From sequence record MK903277.1: a DNA stretch of 39,497 bases. One strand, given 5' to 3'. The translations under genes and the position numbers were made by a program. Numbering within the stretch: the stretch's first letter is position 1; each line of letters begins with the position of its first letter. A model generated the notes under the pieces. It ran no database searches. It was not told the origin of the DNA and saw only the letters and a program-made list of their open reading frames with translations. The stretch is from Escherichia phage Pisces. Shown here in pieces: positions 922 through 9,389 of the stretch.

Positions 922-1386
922 ATGATTTACACTAATGAACAAGCTAACGTATTCTACGTGTATCTGACCGCATATCGCAGCATTAACCTGTACGCAATCA
1001 ACGAGATACTCACCAAAGAGATGGCCGCACGTATCAAGAAACATCCGGGCTTCTACGGGTCTCTCATCAATCAGAACGTTGAGGGCTGCTACCATGAGGC
1101 TGGCGTAGGTCTGCCGAGCGTAGAGCGCACACTGGTAGTTAAATGCACTAAGCTGTCACAGGTCGCTGAGCTGACACGTCTGGCTTGCGAGGACTACGAC
1201 CAAGACGCAGTGTTGCAAGTTAACTCTCAGACTCATACGGCGATACTCAATAGCCTTGAGACGGTGGGCGAATACCCTCAGTCTTACAAGCGCATCAAAG
1301 AGGAGACCATAGGCACCTTCACTAAGCAAGACACCGGGTCTGAGATGTACAGCATCGTCAACGGTGAACGCTGGGAGGTGGCCTAA
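922..1386 (+). CDS. S-adenosyl-L-methionine hydrolase (T3 gene 0.3-type anti-restriction protein)
   Basis: 154 aa; N-terminus MIYTNEQANVFYV and internal blocks (GCYHEA, LACEDYDQD, QTHTA) resemble T3 SAMase as I recall it; first gene after early promoters; SD AAAGGA. Confidence 0.65.
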   Translation: MIYTNEQANVFYVYLTAYRSINLYAINEILTKEMAARIKKHPGFYGSLINQNVEGCYHEAGVGLPSVERTLVVKCTKLSQVAELTRLACEDYDQDAVLQVNSQTHTAILNSLETVGEYPQSYKRIKEETIGTFTKQDTGSEMYSIVNGERWEVA

Positions 1387-1455: not shown

Positions 1456-1776
1456 ATGATTGCATATAAAATCTTCAGAATCCGTAAGGATGGGACGCTG
1501 GGCGCTTTATTCATCAACCGTAAGGCGGTGATTGAGATAGGCGAGTGGTATGAGGCTGAAAGTCATCCGACTAAGGGTTTCGCCTATCGTCCGGGCTGGC
1601 ACTGTACCTTTGAGCAGAATGCACCGCATCTCAAGCTAGACCTGAAGTCTGGTGAGCGCCGGGCATGGTTTAAGGTCGAGGTGGAGGATATAACCACGTA
1701 TGACAGGCCTGAGTCTCAAGGTGGGGCGTGGGTACTGGCTCAGCGTCTCCGGGTACTAGAGCAAGTCTCAGAGTGA
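1456..1776 (+). CDS. Hypothetical early protein (106 aa)
   Basis: ORF with SD GAGAGGGT 3 nt upstream of ATG; occupies the gene 0.4-0.6 position; no recognisable motif. Confidence 0.5.
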   Translation: MIAYKIFRIRKDGTLGALFINRKAVIEIGEWYEAESHPTKGFAYRPGWHCTFEQNAPHLKLDLKSGERRAWFKVEVEDITTYDRPESQGGAWVLAQRLRVLEQVSE

Positions 1777-1788
1777 TAGACTACAGGT

Positions 1789-1826
1789 CTCTTGAGCGAG
1801 AGGCCTGACTGATTGTCACTTAATCA
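1789..1826 (+). promoter_or_regulatory. Leader hairpin / putative RNase III site upstream of gene 0.7
   Basis: CAGGTCTC...GAGAGGCCTG inverted repeat, followed by CCTGACTGATTGTCACTTAA (near-identical to 881-900). Confidence 0.35.
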
Positions 1827-1843
1827 CATAAGGAAACAACTGT

Positions 1844-2578
1844 ATGAACGCACACGATAAAGTAATCATGAACAACCTGATGTCTCAGCTTCACGCTATC
1901 ATCTGCGAGGAGTGCTACAAGATTGAGGACTCAAGCGCTGGGATTGCAGGTCAACCGCGCTGGGGAGCCTTCGAGATACTGGCTAAAGAGCATGGCTACA
2001 AGCTGTTAGGTCTGGGACACTTCGCCGCTGCCTTTGAGCATGAGGACCTGCCGGGCTACGCTATCAAGGTGGGCTTTAAGAAGGACGACTCAGGCGCTGC
2101 ATATGCGGCCTTCTGCCGAGAGAATGAAGGTCTGCCGGGACTGCCAGTCATTCATCTGGTCAAGCGCTTCAGCAGGGCCTACATGGTGGCTATGGATAAA
2201 TACCGCTCACTGAATGACATCGGCGGGAACTACTGCCGGGAGGGTGCAACCTACGAACAGCGAGTCTTAAACGTGTCGTGGCGTGTAGTCAACGCGATAA
2301 TAGACCAGTGCGAGCAACCATCTGAAGCGCTAAGCTGGTGGCTGGACCAAGATGCGCGGGCTGAGTTTGCACACGTCGAGACTCAGTACATCAAAGACCT
2401 TGCGCAGACTGCTAAGAAGATTAACAGCTTCTTCTACGGGCTGGCATCATTCGACACTCACCGCGCTAACGTGATGGTCGATAACAACGGGCGACTGATA
2501 ATCACTGACCCGGTGTCTTGGACCGCAAGCGACCATCAAGACGAGATGCAGGGTAAACTGAATGCAATAGCCGAGTGA
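1844..2578 (+). CDS. Gene 0.7-like serine/threonine protein kinase, kinase domain only
   Basis: 244 aa; block AIKVGFKKDDSGAAYAAFCR matches T7 gp0.7 [26 protein letters not shown] motif conserved; lacks the roughly 115-aa C-terminal host shut-off part present in T7. Confidence 0.8.
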   Translation: MNAHDKVIMNNLMSQLHAIICEECYKIEDSSAGIAGQPRWGAFEILAKEHGYKLLGLGHFAAAFEHEDLPGYAIKVGFKKDDSGAAYAAFCRENEGLPGLPVIHLVKRFSRAYMVAMDKYRSLNDIGGNYCREGATYEQRVLNVSWRVVNAIIDQCEQPSEALSWWLDQDARAEFAHVETQYIKDLAQTAKKINSFFYGLASFDTHRANVMVDNNGRLIITDPVSWTASDHQDEMQGKLNAIAE

Positions 2579-2732
2579 TAGGCGAGAGGCCACTACATCT
2601 AGTGGTCTCAAAGATTATTACTCACAACATATAGAGGTGAACTATGAACATTGGTTACTGGGTGTGCCTTACTCCGGTCATCTTTCTGATAGCTTTCGGT
2701 CTTCTGGATGCAATCAAGAGAGGGTCTTTCTA

Positions 2733-2927
2733 ATGGCTTGGGCACTTCTGGTCATCGGCTACGGGTTAATACTCGCAGTCATCACGAAAGACATCATCAA
2801 GGCACGTAAAGTCTACCGCTTCCAGTATGTATCACTGGGCCGCTGGACTGTAAGGCAACCAAACGGACGCTTTATGCGCAACCTCGCAAACGTCTGGGAT
2901 ATAGCAACATTAGGGAGTAAACTGTAA
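2733..2927 (+). CDS. Small membrane protein (64 aa)
   Basis: ATG at 2733 overlaps upstream stop (TAATG); N-terminal hydrophobic helix WALLVIGYGLILAVI followed by a basic tail; the ORF track's GTG start at 2637 is less likely. Confidence 0.4.
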   Translation: MAWALLVIGYGLILAVITKDIIKARKVYRFQYVSLGRWTVRQPNGRFMRNLANVWDIATLGSKL

Positions 2928-3253
2928 TGAGCAAATCTTATGGCATCAACTTGGTTCACGCACTAGACGCCGACCTCAATCTGCTTTCATCACTGGCTAC
3001 AGGCTACCGACACGGGACCTCACGTCACACCGTTCGTCAACAGCAGGAGCGCGACCGGGTACTGCAAGCAAGACTCCGGGCCGAGGGCAATAAGGCCGAG
3101 CTGATGTGTCTGGCCTACGGTGGGCGACCACGCACTGACGATGGTAAACTTCTGGTCTCAGGCTGGAGGGCGATAGACCAGCGGTCAGACATCAAGCACA
3201 CGACCAAAGGTGACTTCAGTCATCTCCACGCTAACCCACTGATATGCAAGTAG
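2927..3253 (+). CDS. Hypothetical basic protein (108 aa)
   Basis: ATG overlaps previous stop (TAATG), SD AGGGAG upstream; Arg/Gln-rich; immediately upstream of the RNA polymerase gene. Confidence 0.5.
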   Translation: MSKSYGINLVHALDADLNLLSSLATGYRHGTSRHTVRQQQERDRVLQARLRAEGNKAELMCLAYGGRPRTDDGKLLVSGWRAIDQRSDIKHTTKGDFSHLHANPLICK

Positions 3254-3260
3254 TTTGGAC

Positions 3261-3330
3261 TAAACTATCACTAAAGGACTCAAGGTCGAAAGACTCTAAG
3301 TCAGGACTGAAGTGAAAGACTTTAGTGATA
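3261..3330 (+). promoter_or_regulatory. Promoter-like element inside a long hairpin upstream of the RNAP gene (R1-like processing site)
   Basis: TAAACTATCACTAAAGG (3261-3277) differs from the phage promoter consensus at -2; TATCACTAAAG (3266-3276) is the exact reverse complement of CTTTAGTGATA (3319-3329). Confidence 0.4.
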
Positions 3331-3356
3331 AGACAACAGTTATAAGGACTTTAAGT

Positions 3357-6038
3357 ATGAGCGTCATCTCAATTGACAAGCACGACTTCTCTGATGTGTC
3401 GAATGCAATCGAGCCATTCAACGTACTGGCTGACCACTACGGTCAGGACCTAGCAGTAAAACAGCTTCAGCTTGAGCATGAGGCGTACACTGAAGGCGAG
3501 CGACGTTTCATCAAGAACCTTGAGCGCCAAGCTGAGCGCGGGGAGCTGGCAGACAATCAGGTCGCCAAGCCACTGATGCAAACTCTGGTCCCGACCATCG
3601 CCAAGGCTGTTCGTGAGTGGCACGAAGGCCCGGACGGTAAGTCCTCGACCTCTCGCCCAAGCGTAGCGTTTACCATGCTGAGCACTGACGAGAAGGCTGT
3701 CAAAGACCGCTCTCTGCGAATCTCTGCTGAGTCTGCTGCGGTCATCATACTGAAAGTCATCCTCAGCAAGCTGGTCAAGCCTGAGGGAATCCCGATAACG
3801 CCGATGGCCTCCGCGATTGGTCGCACACTTGAAGATGAAATCCGCTTCGGTCGCATCCGTGAGCAGGAGCAGGAGCACTTCAAGAAGACCATAGCTGAGA
3901 ACCTGAAGAAACGTGCAGGAGCAAGCTACAAGAAAGCCTACATGCAAGCGGTCGAAGCCTCCATGCTGGAGCAAGGGAAACTGGCTGACGCTTGGGGGAC
4001 TTGGAGTCCGACCGAGGCGGTACACGTAGGCATCAAGATGCTGGAGCTGGTCATCCAGTCCTCGCAACTGGTCGAACTGAAGCGCTACGGTGCAGGTAAC
4101 GCTGCGGCAGACGTCGAGATGGTCCACCTGTCAGACTTCTGGGTCAAGAAGATGTCGCAACGTGGCTTCTCACTGGCTGGCATCGCTCCGGTCTACCAAC
4201 CTTGCGTCGTTCCACCTAAGCCGTGGACCGGGGTCGTGGGTGGTGGGTACTGGGCTAAGGGCCGAAGACCTCTCCCGCTGATTCGCTTAGGGTCCAAGGC
4301 TGCGGTCCAGCGCTACGAAGACGTGTACATGCCCGAAGTCTACGAGGCAGTGAATATCATCCAGCAGACACCTTGGAAGGTGAACAAGAAGGTGCTGGAC
4401 GTGGTGAACATGGTCGAGAAGCTGAACAACACGCCTATCGCTGACATCCCTCAGATGGAACCGATGAAGCCTGAAGACTATGCAGGTGAGACCGAGGAAG
4501 AACTCAAAGCGTGGAAGAAAGCCGCTGCTGGTATCTATCGACGCGAGAAGGCCCGACAGTCCCGCCGTTTGTCCCTGAGCTTCATCGTCGGACAGGCGAA
4601 CAAGTTCTCTCAGTTCAAGGCCATCTGGTTCCCATACAACATGGACTGGCGCGGTCGAGTCTATGCGGTCCCGATGTTCAACCCTCAGGGTAACGACATG
4701 CAGAAGGGTCTGCTGACTCTGGCAGTAGGCAAGCCAATCGGTGCGGATGGCTTCAAGTGGCTGAAGGTCCACGGTGCAAACTGCGCTGGTGTCGATAAAG
4801 TCACCTTCGAGGAGCGCATCAAGTGGGTCGAAGACAACCACGACAACATCCTCGCGGCTGCTAAGAGTCCGATGGATAGCATTGACTGGTGGGGTCAGTT
4901 AGACTCTCCGTTCTGCTTCCTCGCGTTCTGCTTCGAGTATGCTGGAGTCATGCACCACGGGCTGAGCTACTCCTGCTCACTGCCTATCGCGTTCGATGGG
5001 TCCTGCTCTGGGATTCAGCACTTCAGCGCGATGCTTCGTGACCACGTTGGTGGACATGCGGTCAACCTGACGCCAAGCGGTAAGGTCCAAGACATCTACC
5101 GCATTGTGTCCGACCGGGTGGAAGAACAGCTTAAGGAGCTGCTGGTCAACGGTAGTGACAACGAAGTCAAGACCTTCGAGGACAAGAAGACGGGCGAGAT
5201 TACTGAACGTCTGGTCCTTGGAACTCGCGAGCTGGCCCGTCAGTGGCTGACCTACGGGATGTCACGCTCGGTCACTAAACGCTCGGTCATGACTCTGGCC
5301 TATGGGTCGAAGGAATACGGGTTCGCGGACCAAGTGTTTGAGGACACCGTGATGCCAGCGATTGACAGCGGCAAGGGCGCGATGTTCACGGACCCAAGCC
5401 AAGCGTCACGCTTCATGGCTAAGATGATTTGGGATGCGGTAAGCGTGACCGTAGTTGCTGCGGTAGACGCGATGAAGTGGCTGCAAGGCGCTGCTAAACT
5501 GCTGGCTGCTGAGGTCAAGGACAAGAAGACCAAAGAGGTCCTGAAGCCTTGCCTCCCGGTTCACTGGGTCACACCTGATGGCTTCCCGGTCTGGCAGGAG
5601 TACCGCAAGAAAGACACCACACGCCTGAACCTCCTATTCCTTGGGTCGTTCAACCTGCAACCGACAGTCAACAAAGGGTCGAAGAAAGAGCTGGACAAGC
5701 ACAAGCAGGAGTCCGGCATCAGTCCTAACTTCGTACACTCACAGGATGGCAGTCACCTGAGGAAGACTGTAGTCCACACCCACCGCAAGTACGGCGTGAT
5801 GTCCTTCGCAGTGATTCACGATAGCTTCGGGACCATCCCGGCTGACGCTGAGTTCCTGTTCAAAGGCGTCCGTGAGACGATGGTTGAGACCTACCGCGAC
5901 AACGATGTGCTGCAAGACTTCTACGAGCAGTTCGCGGACCAGCTTCACGAGAGCCAGCGCGATAAGTTGCCTGAGCTGCCGAAGCGCGGTAAACTGAACA
6001 TTGAAGACATTCTGTTATCTGACTTTGCATTCGCCTGA
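3357..6038 (+). CDS. Single-subunit DNA-directed RNA polymerase (T7 gene 1 homologue)
   Basis: 893 aa from ATG 3357 (the ORF track's 3312 start is probably too early); strong collinear similarity to T7 RNAP including the specificity-loop region and C-terminal FAFA. Confidence 0.95.
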   Translation: MSVISIDKHDFSDVSNAIEPFNVLADHYGQDLAVKQLQLEHEAYTEGERRFIKNLERQAERGELADNQVAKPLMQTLVPTIAKAVREWHEGPDGKSSTSRPSVAFTMLSTDEKAVKDRSLRISAESAAVIILKVILSKLVKPEGIPITPMASAIGRTLEDEIRFGRIREQEQEHFKKTIAENLKKRAGASYKKAYMQAVEASMLEQGKLADAWGTWSPTEAVHVGIKMLELVIQSSQLVELKRYGAGNAAADVEMVHLSDFWVKKMSQRGFSLAGIAPVYQPCVVPPKPWTGVVGGGYWAKGRRPLPLIRLGSKAAVQRYEDVYMPEVYEAVNIIQQTPWKVNKKVLDVVNMVEKLNNTPIADIPQMEPMKPEDYAGETEEELKAWKKAAAGIYRREKARQSRRLSLSFIVGQANKFSQFKAIWFPYNMDWRGRVYAVPMFNPQGNDMQKGLLTLAVGKPIGADGFKWLKVHGANCAGVDKVTFEERIKWVEDNHDNILAAAKSPMDSIDWWGQLDSPFCFLAFCFEYAGVMHHGLSYSCSLPIAFDGSCSGIQHFSAMLRDHVGGHAVNLTPSGKVQDIYRIVSDRVEEQLKELLVNGSDNEVKTFEDKKTGEITERLVLGTRELARQWLTYGMSRSVTKRSVMTLAYGSKEYGFADQVFEDTVMPAIDSGKGAMFTDPSQASRFMAKMIWDAVSVTVVAAVDAMKWLQGAAKLLAAEVKDKKTKEVLKPCLPVHWVTPDGFPVWQEYRKKDTTRLNLLFLGSFNLQPTVNKGSKKELDKHKQESGISPNFVHSQDGSHLRKTVVHTHRKYGVMSFAVIHDSFGTIPADAEFLFKGVRETMVETYRDNDVLQDFYEQFADQLHESQRDKLPELPKRGKLNIEDILLSDFAFA

Positions 6039-9146: not shown

Positions 9147-9224
9147 CTGGTGCTTTAGACAGTGGGTCTCAACCGGGAACGTGGACTATCTGTCCATGTA
9201 CCATATGTGGAAGGAGAAAGGACT

Positions 9225-9389
9225 ATGAGCCTTGAAGAAAAGAAGTACATCGTGGAACTTGAAGGTCGCGTTCAGTCCTTTGATGTCCCGGTCTACGCTA
9301 AGTCTCTGGACGAGGCGACCCTGAAGGCTCAGGAATATGAAGATGCTGGTTTCGTGGTAGGCCGCATCCGACCTGAGCTGCACGACTAA
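9225..9389 (+). CDS. Gene 2 homologue, inhibitor of host RNA polymerase
   Basis: 54 aa from ATG 9225 (SD GGAAGGAG); [14 protein letters not shown]...[11 protein letters not shown] parallels T7 Gp2 SFEVPIYAETLDEA...AGFEVTRVRP. Confidence 0.8.

What the first reader, a model, noticed from the sequence alone, without database searches (positions are those of the whole stretch)
1844..3253. Kinase-only gene 0.7 followed by three translationally coupled small genes in place of the T7 shut-off domain
The gene 0.7 homologue stops at 244 aa, roughly where the kinase domain ends in T7, and so lacks the C-terminal ~115 aa that T7 uses for host transcription shut-off. Downstream are a 29-aa hydrophobic peptide (2644-2733, MNIGYWVCLTPVIFLIAFGLLDAIKRGSF, SD AGAGGTGA), a 64-aa membrane protein (2733-2927) and a 108-aa basic protein (2927-3253), linked by two TAATG stop/start overlaps. 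This looks like a modular replacement: the shut-off function may be absent, moved to the separate basic protein, or replaced by a membrane-acting module.
Basis: partly seen in the sequence, partly recalled or inferred. Interest (0 to 1): 0.55.

Follow-up and report, generated by a model that had tools for sequence, protein, structure and literature searches.

The report
Kinase-only gene 0.7 plus conserved early cassette
The genes are real, but this is the ordinary early region of a K1F-like (Kayfunavirus) T7 relative: a naturally short kinase sits next to an older, independently conserved three-gene cassette of unknown function, which does not replace the missing shut-off domain.

Summary
The window is Escherichia phage Pisces, a Kayfunavirus. 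All four ORFs exist as described and are under purifying selection (dN/dS 0.09-0.16). The kinase (244 aa) aligns only to the T7 gp0.7 kinase domain. No shut-off (SO) domain is detectable anywhere in the genome.

The "modular replacement" reading fails three tests.
- The 64-aa membrane protein is the T3-type gp0.6 (PHROG 2385). In 64 loci of T3- and KP32-like phages it lies upstream of a full-length kinase+SO gene.
- The p29-p64-p108 cassette also sits directly before gene 1 in Kayfunaviruses with no kinase at all, K1F included, where p64 and p108 are gp0.37 and gp0.38.
- Profile-profile comparison of the 108-aa family with the SO domain gives 1.2% probability.

Homology between kinase-bearing and kinase-less relatives begins exactly at a conserved RNase III-type hairpin whose 5' arm carries the kinase stop codon. 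The adjacency therefore reflects cassette shuffling.

Modest new points: the 29-aa ORF is a genuine, mostly unannotated micro-protein gene, and the GenBank 87-aa call is probably wrong. The kinase is also a natural counterpart of the engineered T7 ΔSO mutant. The function of the small genes remains unknown.

The parts
1771..1821 (+). RNase III-type hairpin upstream of the kinase gene. It has a lower stem, an asymmetric internal loop and a 10-bp upper stem. Its 5' arm GAGTGATAG carries the stop codon of the upstream 106-aa ORF.
   Evidence: Fold -24 kcal/mol, z -3.35. Same geometry as the annotated T3 sites R0.3, R0.5, R1 and R1.1. Exact motif match.
1844..2578 (+). Gene 0.7 homologue: a 244-aa kinase-domain-only Ser/Thr/Tyr protein kinase. 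The Gly loop GLGHF (T7 G76 equivalent) and the DPVS motif are intact. There is no SO domain.
   Evidence: BLASTP to T7 gp0.7 residues 27-218, E 2e-35. PHROG 15752 at 3e-111 over a 260-position profile, and PHROG 2828 positions 45-225 of 366. 244 aa in all 9 distinct relatives. dN/dS 0.087.
2573..2623 (+). RNase III-type hairpin between the kinase gene and p29. The kinase stop codon (GAG TGA) lies in its 5' arm. It marks the left boundary of the conserved cassette.
   Evidence: Fold -19.7 to -25 kcal/mol, z -3.44. Conserved with wobble-compatible changes in kinase-bearing and kinase-less relatives, and homology starts exactly here.
2644..2733 (+). p29: a 29-aa micro-protein with a single hydrophobic helix (MNIGYWVCLTPVIFLIAFGLLDAIKRGSF). 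It is unannotated in most GenBank records.
   Evidence: 29 codons with ATG and a Shine-Dalgarno in 16 of 17 distinct sequences. dN/dS 0.14 in frame against 1.4-1.6 out of frame. tblastn hits in 94 phage records. No PHROG, Pfam, NCBIfam or PADLOC hit.
2733..2927 (+). p64: homologue of T3-type gp0.6 / K1F gp0.37. It has an N-terminal transmembrane helix and a basic C-terminal part with the near-invariant motif GRWTVRQPNGRF...NLANVWDIA.
   Evidence: PHROG 2385 at 1.4e-27. 33-47% identity to T3 gp0.6 and relatives. Alignment A2. The start at ATG 2733 is supported because most homologues are 64-67 aa and the upstream extension frame carries stop codons in relatives. dN/dS 0.14.
2927..3253 (+). p108: member of the K1F gp0.38 family, a basic helical protein. 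The conserved core is residues about 27-108; the N-terminal 21-26 residues vary between relatives (83-139 aa forms).
   Evidence: PHROG 7066 at 4.6e-42. Alignments A1 and A3. Only 15 clusters at 50% identity among 1.84 billion proteins. AF2 pLDDT 71, with the core at 35-88 above 90, forming three helices. No informative fold match. dN/dS 0.16.
3258..3281 (+). Phage-RNA-polymerase promoter-like sequence (ACTAAACTATCACTAAAGGAC). It differs by one base (-2 T>A) from this genome's consensus CTAAACTATCACTATAGG and lies 77 nt upstream of gene 1.
   Evidence: Listing of CTATCAC sites with flanks: about 10 consensus copies elsewhere on the + strand.
3266..3330 (+). Structured element between p108 and gene 1, with an 11-bp outer stem TATCACTAAAG/CTTTAGTGATA. 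It is a candidate R1-type processing site and marks the right boundary of the cassette.
   Evidence: Fold -19.2 kcal/mol, z -2.13. This is weaker evidence than for the two upstream hairpins.
3357..6038 (+). Gene 1: single-subunit T7-type RNA polymerase (893 aa), the conserved anchor directly downstream of the cassette.
   Evidence: ORF listing. tblastn synteny across all loci. Annotations in relatives.

Best explanation
This is the class I (early) region of a Kayfunavirus, Escherichia phage Pisces. It is built from cassettes separated by conserved RNase III-type hairpins.

One cassette carries a kinase-domain-only homologue of T7 gp0.7. It is a natural counterpart of the engineered T7 ΔSO protein (residues 1-242). 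By inference it is still an active, promiscuous, self-limiting kinase, but it lacks the DNA-binding SO domain that concentrates T7 kinase on nucleic-acid-bound targets and that blocks host transcription on its own.

The next cassette, p29-p64-p108, is an older and independent Kayfunavirus early unit that always sits directly before gene 1. It is not a substitute for the SO domain.

Inferred expression: host RNA polymerase reads through the region, and RNase III cuts at the hairpins to release a tricistronic p29-p64-p108 mRNA. Ribosomes load at the p29 Shine-Dalgarno and pass to p64 and p108 through the one-base TAATG overlaps, each of which is also preceded by a Shine-Dalgarno-like GGAG/GAGG.

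Inferred function, low confidence: p29 and p64 insert into the inner membrane and p108 is a cytoplasmic basic helical protein. Like other T7-group class I accessory genes (0.3, 0.4, 0.6, 0.7, 1.2), they probably act in host take-over or counter-defence. Host RNA polymerase shut-off in this phage is left to the gp2 homologue.

Shown here: gene reality, homologies, distribution, hairpin conservation and absence of SO. Inferred: RNase III cleavage, coupling, membrane location, kinase activity and the biological role.
For: - Identity of the window: P0146 is CPT_Pisces_004 on a 39,497-bp contig; the closest records are Kayfunavirus.
- Kinase only. No SO domain in the genome.
- T7 domain limits and the ΔSO phenotype (about 31% of wild-type phosphopeptides, faster self-inactivation, loss of bias to nucleic-acid binders): PMC13645617. 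For JSS1_004 both domains are needed for full anti-Dnd activity: PMC12345140.
- p64 is T3 gp0.6 and lies upstream of full-length kinases in 64 loci.
- The cassette is present in kinase-less phages, including K1F as gp0.37/gp0.38.
- A 45%-identical p108 relative keeps the order 64-aa gene, then p108 with a one-base overlap, then RNA polymerase, on a contig with no kinase.
- Record counts: p108 223, p29 94, Pisces-type kinase 46.
- Homology between kinase-bearing and kinase-less genomes begins at GAGTGATAG, the 5' arm of the hairpin, which holds the stop codon of whichever gene lies upstream.
- Hairpin geometry, and in kinase-less relatives the upper-stem sequence (GAGGTCATC...GGTGGCCTC), match the annotated T3 RNase III sites.
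- Purifying selection on all four genes.
- The overlap is conserved in two alternative forms, TAATG and ATGA.
- A gp2 homologue lies at 9222-9374 (44% identity, E 2e-11).
Against: - No expression, cleavage, localisation or activity data exist for any Kayfunavirus early gene in the searchable literature.
- The functional part rests on analogy with T7 and T3.
- p64 and p108 can each occur without the other (T3-like phages have only p64; L108 has only p108), and some relatives carry an inserted gene between them, annotated endonuclease VII in IMM-002. The cassette is therefore not an obligate unit.
- The direction of evolution is unresolved. The Pisces kinase is about equally distant (32-44%) from all full-length groups, so SO loss in Kayfunavirus and SO gain in the T7/T3 lineage cannot be told apart.
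- The third hairpin (3266-3330) is only marginally better than shuffles (z -2.1) and overlaps a promoter-like site.
Confidence: 0.75

Rival explanations
1. Functional relocation. The SO function (DNA binding and host transcription shut-off) is provided in trans by p108, a basic helical protein that is a non-homologous analogue of the SO domain. Because the T7 SO domain works independently of the kinase, such a protein would also be useful in kinase-less relatives.
For: - p108 is basic (pI 9.75, +6) and helical, like the SO domain (pI 10.7, +11).
- p108 and SO never co-occur: none of 82 full-length-kinase loci has p108, and none of 32 p108 locus entries has SO.
- The SO domain acts independently of kinase activity in T7 (PMC13645617).
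Against: - hhalign probability is 1.2%, and BLASTP gives only a 19-residue charged match at E 0.14.
- There is no PHROG 2828 hit.
- Ser/Thr/Tyr content is 15.7% in p108 against 2.3% in SO.
- The complementary distribution coincides with the genus boundary, so it is phylogenetically confounded.
Confidence: 0.12
2. Membrane-acting replacement. The p29/p64 membrane proteins took over the host-inactivation role of the SO domain by a different route, such as membrane depolarisation or a block to division or envelope synthesis.
For: - Both have strong hydrophobic helices.
- Other T7-group early proteins target FtsZ and MreB (my own knowledge of T7 gp0.4 and gp0.6).
- The K1F gp0.35 family is gp0.4-like (hhalign 92.9%; PF26807 Phage_T7_GP04).
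Against: - p64 homologues coexist with intact SO domains in 64 loci.
- p29 and p64 are present in kinase-less phages.
- p29 is missing from 8 of 15 kinase-only locus entries.
- p64 is not related to T7 gp0.5 or gp0.6A (hhalign below 1%).
Confidence: 0.05
3. The short kinase is a decaying remnant, that is, a truncated pseudogene left after a deletion that removed the SO domain.
For: It is 115 aa shorter than T7 gp0.7, and its stop codon lies at a cassette junction.
Against: - dN/dS is 0.087.
- The 244-aa length is identical in 9 distinct sequences spanning 92-97% protein identity with pS 0.35.
- The Gly loop and the DPVS motif are intact.
- It has its own PHROG, whose 260-position profile is matched over positions 18-260.
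- The T7 kinase domain alone is soluble and active (PMC13645617).
Confidence: 0.02
4. p29 is not a gene. The real product is the 87-96-aa N-terminally extended form of p64, as annotated in GenBank (CPT_Pisces_004).
For: The p64 frame is open back to GTG 2637. Gene callers produced 85-88-aa proteins in a few genomes.
Against: - The extension frame contains stop codons in 10 of 17 relatives and has dN/dS 1.57, against 0.14 for the p29 frame.
- Most p64 homologues are 64-67 aa.
- There is a Shine-Dalgarno before the p29 ATG and none before GTG 2637.
Confidence: 0.03

Closest known systems
T7 gp0.7 protein kinase (T7K), and its engineered ΔSO form (residues 1-242)
   Same: Homologous kinase domain (33% identity). 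The Gly-loop glycine equivalent to T7 G76 is conserved, as are the DPV motif and the following serine (T7 S216, the self-inhibitory site). It is in the same early-region position and has almost the same length as the T7 kinase domain.
   Different: It lacks the 117-aa DNA-binding, host shut-off SO domain. It belongs to a separate PHROG (15752, not 2828). Its stop codon lies inside an RNase III-type hairpin. Its activity and targets are untested.
T3 gene 0.6 protein (PHROG 2385; K1F gp0.37)
   Same: p64 is a member of this family. It has the same length (64-65 aa), an N-terminal hydrophobic helix, the conserved R(W/F)TVR.(P/R)NGRF motif, and early-region location after an RNase III site.
   Different: In T3- and KP32-like phages the gene lies upstream of a full-length kinase gene. 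Here it lies downstream of a kinase-only gene, directly coupled to p29 and p108. No function is known in any phage. It is unrelated to T7 gp0.6.
K1F gp0.38 family (PHROG 7066)
   Same: The p108 core (residues about 27-108) is 70% identical to K1F gp0.38. It holds the same position, immediately upstream of gene 1 and overlapping the stop codon of the preceding gene.
   Different: Pisces has a 21-26-residue N-terminal extension, and other relatives have 83-139-aa forms. The family is confined to Kayfunavirus-like contigs and has no known function or fold relative.
T7/T3 early-mRNA RNase III processing sites (R0.3, R0.5, R1, R1.1)
   Same: A two-stem hairpin with an asymmetric internal loop, placed between early cistron groups. 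The upper stems of relatives closely resemble T3 R1 and R1.1.
   Different: Cleavage is not demonstrated here. In Kayfunavirus the 5' arm (GAGTGATAG) doubles as the stop codon of the upstream gene and coincides with the point at which homology between kinase-bearing and kinase-less relatives begins.

Membership tests
T7 gp0.7-type protein kinase (kinase domain) | Sequence homology to the T7K kinase domain | tested here: met
   BLASTP E 2e-35 to T7 residues 27-218. PHROG 15752 at 3.3e-111 and PHROG 2828 at 6.1e-53, profile positions 45-225.
T7 gp0.7-type protein kinase (kinase domain) | Catalytic signatures: Gly-loop glycine (T7 G76), the DPV motif (T7 213-215) and the adjacent Ser (T7 S216) | tested here: met
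   The alignment shows LGLGHFAAAF against LGNGHFSAAY, and ITDPVSWT against ITDPVSFS. The residue roles are taken from PMC13645617.
T7 gp0.7-type protein kinase (kinase domain) | Protein kinase activity during infection | not testable with these tools
   This needs phosphoproteomics or an in vitro assay. It is inferred only from conservation (dN/dS 0.087).
Full-length T7K architecture (kinase + SO domain) | A C-terminal DNA-binding shut-off domain following the kinase domain | tested here: not met
   The ORF ends at residue 244. The SO HMM and tblastn with 75 SO sequences find nothing significant anywhere in the window.
T7K shut-off (SO) domain family (PF27024 / C-terminal part of PHROG 2828), candidate p108 | Sequence or profile homology to the SO domain | tested here: not met
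   hhalign of A1 against a 75-sequence SO alignment gives probability 1.2%. BLASTP best E is 0.14 over 19 residues. There is no PHROG 2828 hit at E up to 1. PF27024 is not in the local Pfam copy.
T7K shut-off (SO) domain family, candidate p108 | DNA binding and inhibition of host transcription | not testable with these tools
   Only composition could be examined (pI 9.75, helical). No DNA-binding fold was recovered.
T3 gp0.6 family (PHROG 2385), candidate p64 | Sequence homology over the full length, with an N-terminal hydrophobic helix | tested here: met
   PHROG 2385 at 1.4e-27, residues 1-63. tblastn 33-47% identity to T3-type gp0.6 in 64 loci. Kyte-Doolittle score 2.44 at residues 1-17.
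K1F gp0.38 family (PHROG 7066), candidate p108 | Sequence homology and position immediately upstream of gene 1 | tested here: met
   PHROG 7066 at 4.6e-42. 70% identity to K1F gp0.38. Synteny in all 32 locus entries and in a 45%-identical relative.
T7 gp0.4 / gp0.5 / gp0.6A and T3 gp0.65 families, candidates p29, p64, p108 | Profile homology | tested here: not met
   hhalign probabilities are 0.1-0.6% for p29 and p64 against T7 gp0.5, T7 gp0.6A and K1F gp0.36, and 0.5% for p108 against T3 gp0.65. BLASTP of p64 against T7 gp0.6A gives no alignment.
T7-group RNase III processing sites | Intercistronic hairpin with a lower stem, asymmetric internal loop and upper stem, conserved across relatives | tested here: met
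   z -3.35 and -3.44. The geometry matches the annotated T3 sites. Conservation with pairing-compatible changes in 11 sequences.
T7-group RNase III processing sites | Cleavage by host RNase III in vivo | not testable with these tools
   This needs 5'-end mapping in rnc+ and rnc- hosts. There is no Rfam model (0 hits).

The most novel reading that the evidence does not exclude
The gp0.38-family protein (p108) is a stand-alone, non-homologous analogue of the T7 shut-off domain. On this reading it is a small basic helical protein that binds DNA or host RNA polymerase and silences host transcription or DNA-sensing defences in Kayfunaviruses, possibly tethered at the membrane through the co-translated p64. 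That would explain why this genus can do without the SO domain, and often without the kinase.
Probability: 0.1. Interest if true: 0.6.

Novelty: already known. Interest (0 to 1): 0.25.

Why it matters
As it stands the finding is mostly a clarification. The arrangement is the normal early region of one Kayfunavirus sub-lineage, and every gene already sits in a catalogued family (PHROGs 15752, 2385, 7066; K1F gp0.37 and gp0.38). Three things are still useful.

1. After the 2026 demonstration that the T7 SO domain is a DNA-binding module steering a hyper-promiscuous kinase, these phages offer a natural ΔSO kinase. Their closest relatives have no kinase at all. That is a ready-made comparative system for asking what the kinase does without DNA targeting.

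2. p29 is a strongly conserved membrane micro-protein that most annotations miss or merge into a wrong 87-aa ORF.

3. The early region appears to be shuffled at RNase III-type hairpins whose 5' arm supplies the stop codon for whichever gene is placed upstream. This is a neat mechanistic detail of modular evolution in the T7 group.

Tried and rejected
- **p108 as a diverged SO domain.** Rejected by BLASTP, PHROG and Pfam scans and hhalign against an SO profile I built from 75 sequences.
- **p108 as a relative of T3 gp0.65**, which holds the equivalent position after gp0.6 and shares an 'AYG' motif. hhalign probability is 0.5%.
- **p64 as T7 gp0.6 or gp0.5, and p29 as T7 gp0.5 or K1F gp0.36.** hhalign gives below 1% in each case.
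- **Solved-structure sequence search with A1.** Only a chance hit at E 0.32.
- **PADLOC and NCBIfam scans.** Nothing.
- **Rfam over the whole window.** Nothing.
- **Sigma-70 promoter and terminator scan.** No convincing site inside 1844-3357, and counts are near shuffle expectation.
- **Literature.** No paper on gp0.38, T3 gp0.6 function or Kayfunavirus early genes was found. The K1F genome paper (guessed id PMC1317022) is not held.
- **Classifying loci by a tblastn hit with the T7 SO sequence.** This mislabelled 24 KP32-like full-length kinases as kinase-only. I used ORF length instead.
Full report
**What the window is.** The 64-aa ORF is 100% identical to CPT_Pisces_004 of Escherichia phage Pisces, whose contig is 39,497 bp, the size of the window. 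Megablast of 1700-3400 finds 184 phage records. The best are Shigella phage SFPH2, Klebsiella phage SAKp10309 and other Kayfunavirus (K1F-like Studiervirinae) genomes at 84-91% identity.

**Observation.** The ORFs exist exactly as described:
- kinase, 1844-2578 (244 aa)
- p29, 2644-2733
- p64, 2733-2927
- p108, 2927-3253

Both junctions are TAATG overlaps, and the Shine-Dalgarno AGAGGTGA lies three bases before the p29 ATG. Gene 1 (RNA polymerase) starts at ATG 3357.

The kinase aligns to T7 gp0.7 residues 27-218 only (33% identity, E 2e-35). It keeps the Gly-loop glycine equivalent to T7 G76 and the DPVS motif. The 2026 T7 kinase study places the kinase domain at residues 1-242 and the SO domain at 243-359 (PMC13645617), so the Pisces protein stops where the T7 kinase domain stops. 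It best matches PHROG 15752, whose 260-position profile it covers over positions 18-260, and it matches only positions 45-225 of the full-length PHROG 2828. All nine distinct close relatives are also 244 aa, and dN/dS is 0.087. This is a stable, selected architecture and not a recent truncation. No SO-like sequence occurs anywhere in the genome. A gp2 (host RNA polymerase inhibitor) homologue is present at 9222-9374.

**Are the small ORFs genes?** Yes.
- p64 hits PHROG 2385 (1.4e-27) and p108 hits PHROG 7066 (4.6e-42). Their dN/dS values are 0.14 and 0.16.
- p29 has no family hit. tblastn nevertheless finds it in 94 phage records, full length, down to 48% identity.
- Of 17 distinct nucleotide versions of p29, 16 keep ATG, a Shine-Dalgarno and 29 codons; in L096 the stop is displaced. 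dN/dS is 0.14 in its own frame and 1.4-1.6 in the other two.
- The alternative reading is an 87-96-aa N-terminally extended p64, as annotated in GenBank for Pisces. That frame has stop codons in 10 of 17 relatives, and most p64 homologues are 64-67 aa.
- The p29/p64 overlap is kept in two alternative forms, TAATG and ATGA. This argues for selection on coupling.

**Test of the 'replacement' idea: distribution.** I collected 80 loci around full-length gp0.7 homologues and 29 around Pisces-type kinase or p108 homologues, plus T7, T3 and K1F.
- p64 is the T3-type gp0.6, at 33-47% identity. It occurs in 64 of the 82 loci that encode a full-length (at least 292 aa) kinase+SO protein, always upstream of the kinase. 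It therefore coexists with the SO domain.
- The cassette (p29)-p64-p108-gene 1 is found in every Kayfunavirus locus entry. That includes 17 entries with no kinase gene at all, among them K1F itself, where p64 and p108 are gp0.37 and gp0.38.
- A 45%-identical p108 relative from a metagenome keeps the order 64-aa gene, then p108 with a one-base overlap, then RNA polymerase, again without a kinase.
- In GenBank phages, p108 occurs in 223 records, but the Pisces-type kinase (at least 80% identity) occurs in only 46.

The cassette is thus independent of the kinase and older than its present neighbour.

**How the adjacency arose.** Two hairpins, at 1771-1821 and 2573-2623, fold far better than shuffles (z -3.35 and -3.44). 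They have the lower stem, asymmetric loop and upper stem seen in the annotated T3 RNase III sites. Both begin with GAGTGATAG, which supplies the stop codon (GAG TGA) of the upstream gene: the 106-aa ORF in the first case and the kinase in the second.

An alignment of the 130 nt upstream of p29 from three kinase-bearing and eight kinase-less phages shows unrelated sequence up to this motif. From the motif onward there is clear homology, with pairing-compatible changes in the upper stem. In kinase-less phages the same motif terminates whichever gene lies upstream; in L110, L109 and L113 that gene is the gp0.4-like gp0.35. The kinase ORF therefore ends at a cassette junction. The simplest reading is exchange of early cassettes by recombination at these conserved hairpins. 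Whether the SO domain was lost here or gained in the T7/T3 lineage cannot be decided, because the Pisces kinase is about equally distant from all full-length groups.

**Likely working.** This part is inferred. Host RNA polymerase transcribes the early region, and RNase III separates a kinase mRNA, a p29-p64-p108 mRNA and the gene 1 mRNA. The three small genes are translated in a coupled way. The kinase should behave like T7 ΔSO: active, but giving about one third of the phosphopeptides, inactivating itself faster, and lacking the bias to nucleic-acid-binding targets (PMC13645617). For the related JSS1_004 protein, both domains are needed for full anti-Dnd activity (PMC12345140). p29 and p64 are predicted to be single-pass inner-membrane proteins, and p108 a basic cytoplasmic helical protein. 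Their role is unknown. By position and analogy they are class I accessory genes for host take-over or counter-defence.

**What remains open.** p108 and the SO domain never co-occur in the 114 loci, and the T7 SO domain acts independently of the kinase. A non-homologous analogue role for p108 therefore cannot be excluded. The split coincides with the genus boundary, p108 is rich in Ser/Thr/Tyr (15.7% against 2.3% in SO), and nothing points to DNA binding. I put this at about 10%.

**Verdict.** The arrangement is the ordinary, already catalogued early region of one Kayfunavirus sub-lineage. Interest is low to moderate, mainly as a natural ΔSO-kinase and kinase-less comparison set, and for the under-annotated p29 micro-protein.

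Noticed in passing
window 3258-3281: A one-mismatch copy (ACTAAACTATCACTAAAGGAC, -2 T>A) of this phage's own RNA polymerase promoter consensus (CTAAACTATCACTATAGG). It sits just after the p108 stop and 77 nt before the gene 1 ATG, and overlaps the 5' arm of the 3266-3330 hairpin. It may be a weak promoter that lets the phage polymerase drive its own gene.
   Followed up: partly
window + strand: 6800, 8475, 9391, 13619, 17677, 20497, 21462, 25910, 33197, 38905: About ten good copies of the phage promoter consensus CTAAACTATCACT(A/G)TAGG(R)A, which map the middle and late transcription units.
   Followed up: no
window 1771-1779 and 2573-2581: The exact motif GAGTGATAG begins both RNase III-type hairpins and holds the stop codon of the upstream ORF. 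The same motif terminates whichever gene lies upstream in kinase-less relatives (gp0.35 in three of them), and marks where homology between kinase-bearing and kinase-less genomes starts.
   Followed up: yes
window 2637-2927: GenBank annotates an 87-aa CPT_Pisces_004 that fuses an out-of-frame reading of the p29 region to p64. Comparative evidence favours p29 (2644-2733) plus a 64-aa p64. p29 is unannotated ('none') in most related records.
   Followed up: yes
L003/L010 (IMM-002) 2720-3142; also L004, L008, L101, L106, L107: Several relatives carry 140-430 nt of extra sequence between p64 and p108. In IMM-002 it is a 140-aa gene annotated endonuclease VII. The N-terminus of p108 varies with it (83-86, 108 and 130-139 aa forms); the long forms share a 'FTDKNGVEW.YVGTDSRGRNYW' insert.
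   Followed up: partly
P0253 (66 aa): A chimeric protein with a gp0.4-like N-terminus (PF26807 Phage_T7_GP04, the K1F gp0.35 type) joined in frame to the conserved C-terminal 29 residues of p64. It suggests a deletion or recombination that fused two early genes.
   Followed up: no
NC_007456 (K1F RefSeq) 2208-2468: The p108 homologue (gp0.38 in AM084414) is not annotated in the K1F RefSeq record, although the ORF is intact.
   Followed up: yes
window 922-1386 and 1456-1776: Gene 0.3 here is a T3-type SAM lyase (PF23780, 1.4e-34), not an Ocr. In the loci examined, kinase-less relatives carry the gp0.4-like gp0.35 gene and no SAM lyase hit, and K1F has an ocr-like 0.3. One kinase-bearing relative (SAKp10309) is also annotated with Ocr. 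The next gene, a 106-aa ORF (PHROG 12224, unknown function), is present in only a few relatives.
   Followed up: partly
search hits H6, H12, H28: Records named Staphylococcus phage MBBL139, Enterococcus phage IME_EF3 and Enterococcus phage EFA-1 are 83-89% identical to this enterobacterial Kayfunavirus early region. The host labels are probably wrong or the samples contaminated.
   Followed up: no
window 9222-9374: A homologue of T7 gp2, the host RNA polymerase inhibitor (44% identity, E 2e-11). Host transcription shut-off does not depend on an SO domain alone.
   Followed up: partly
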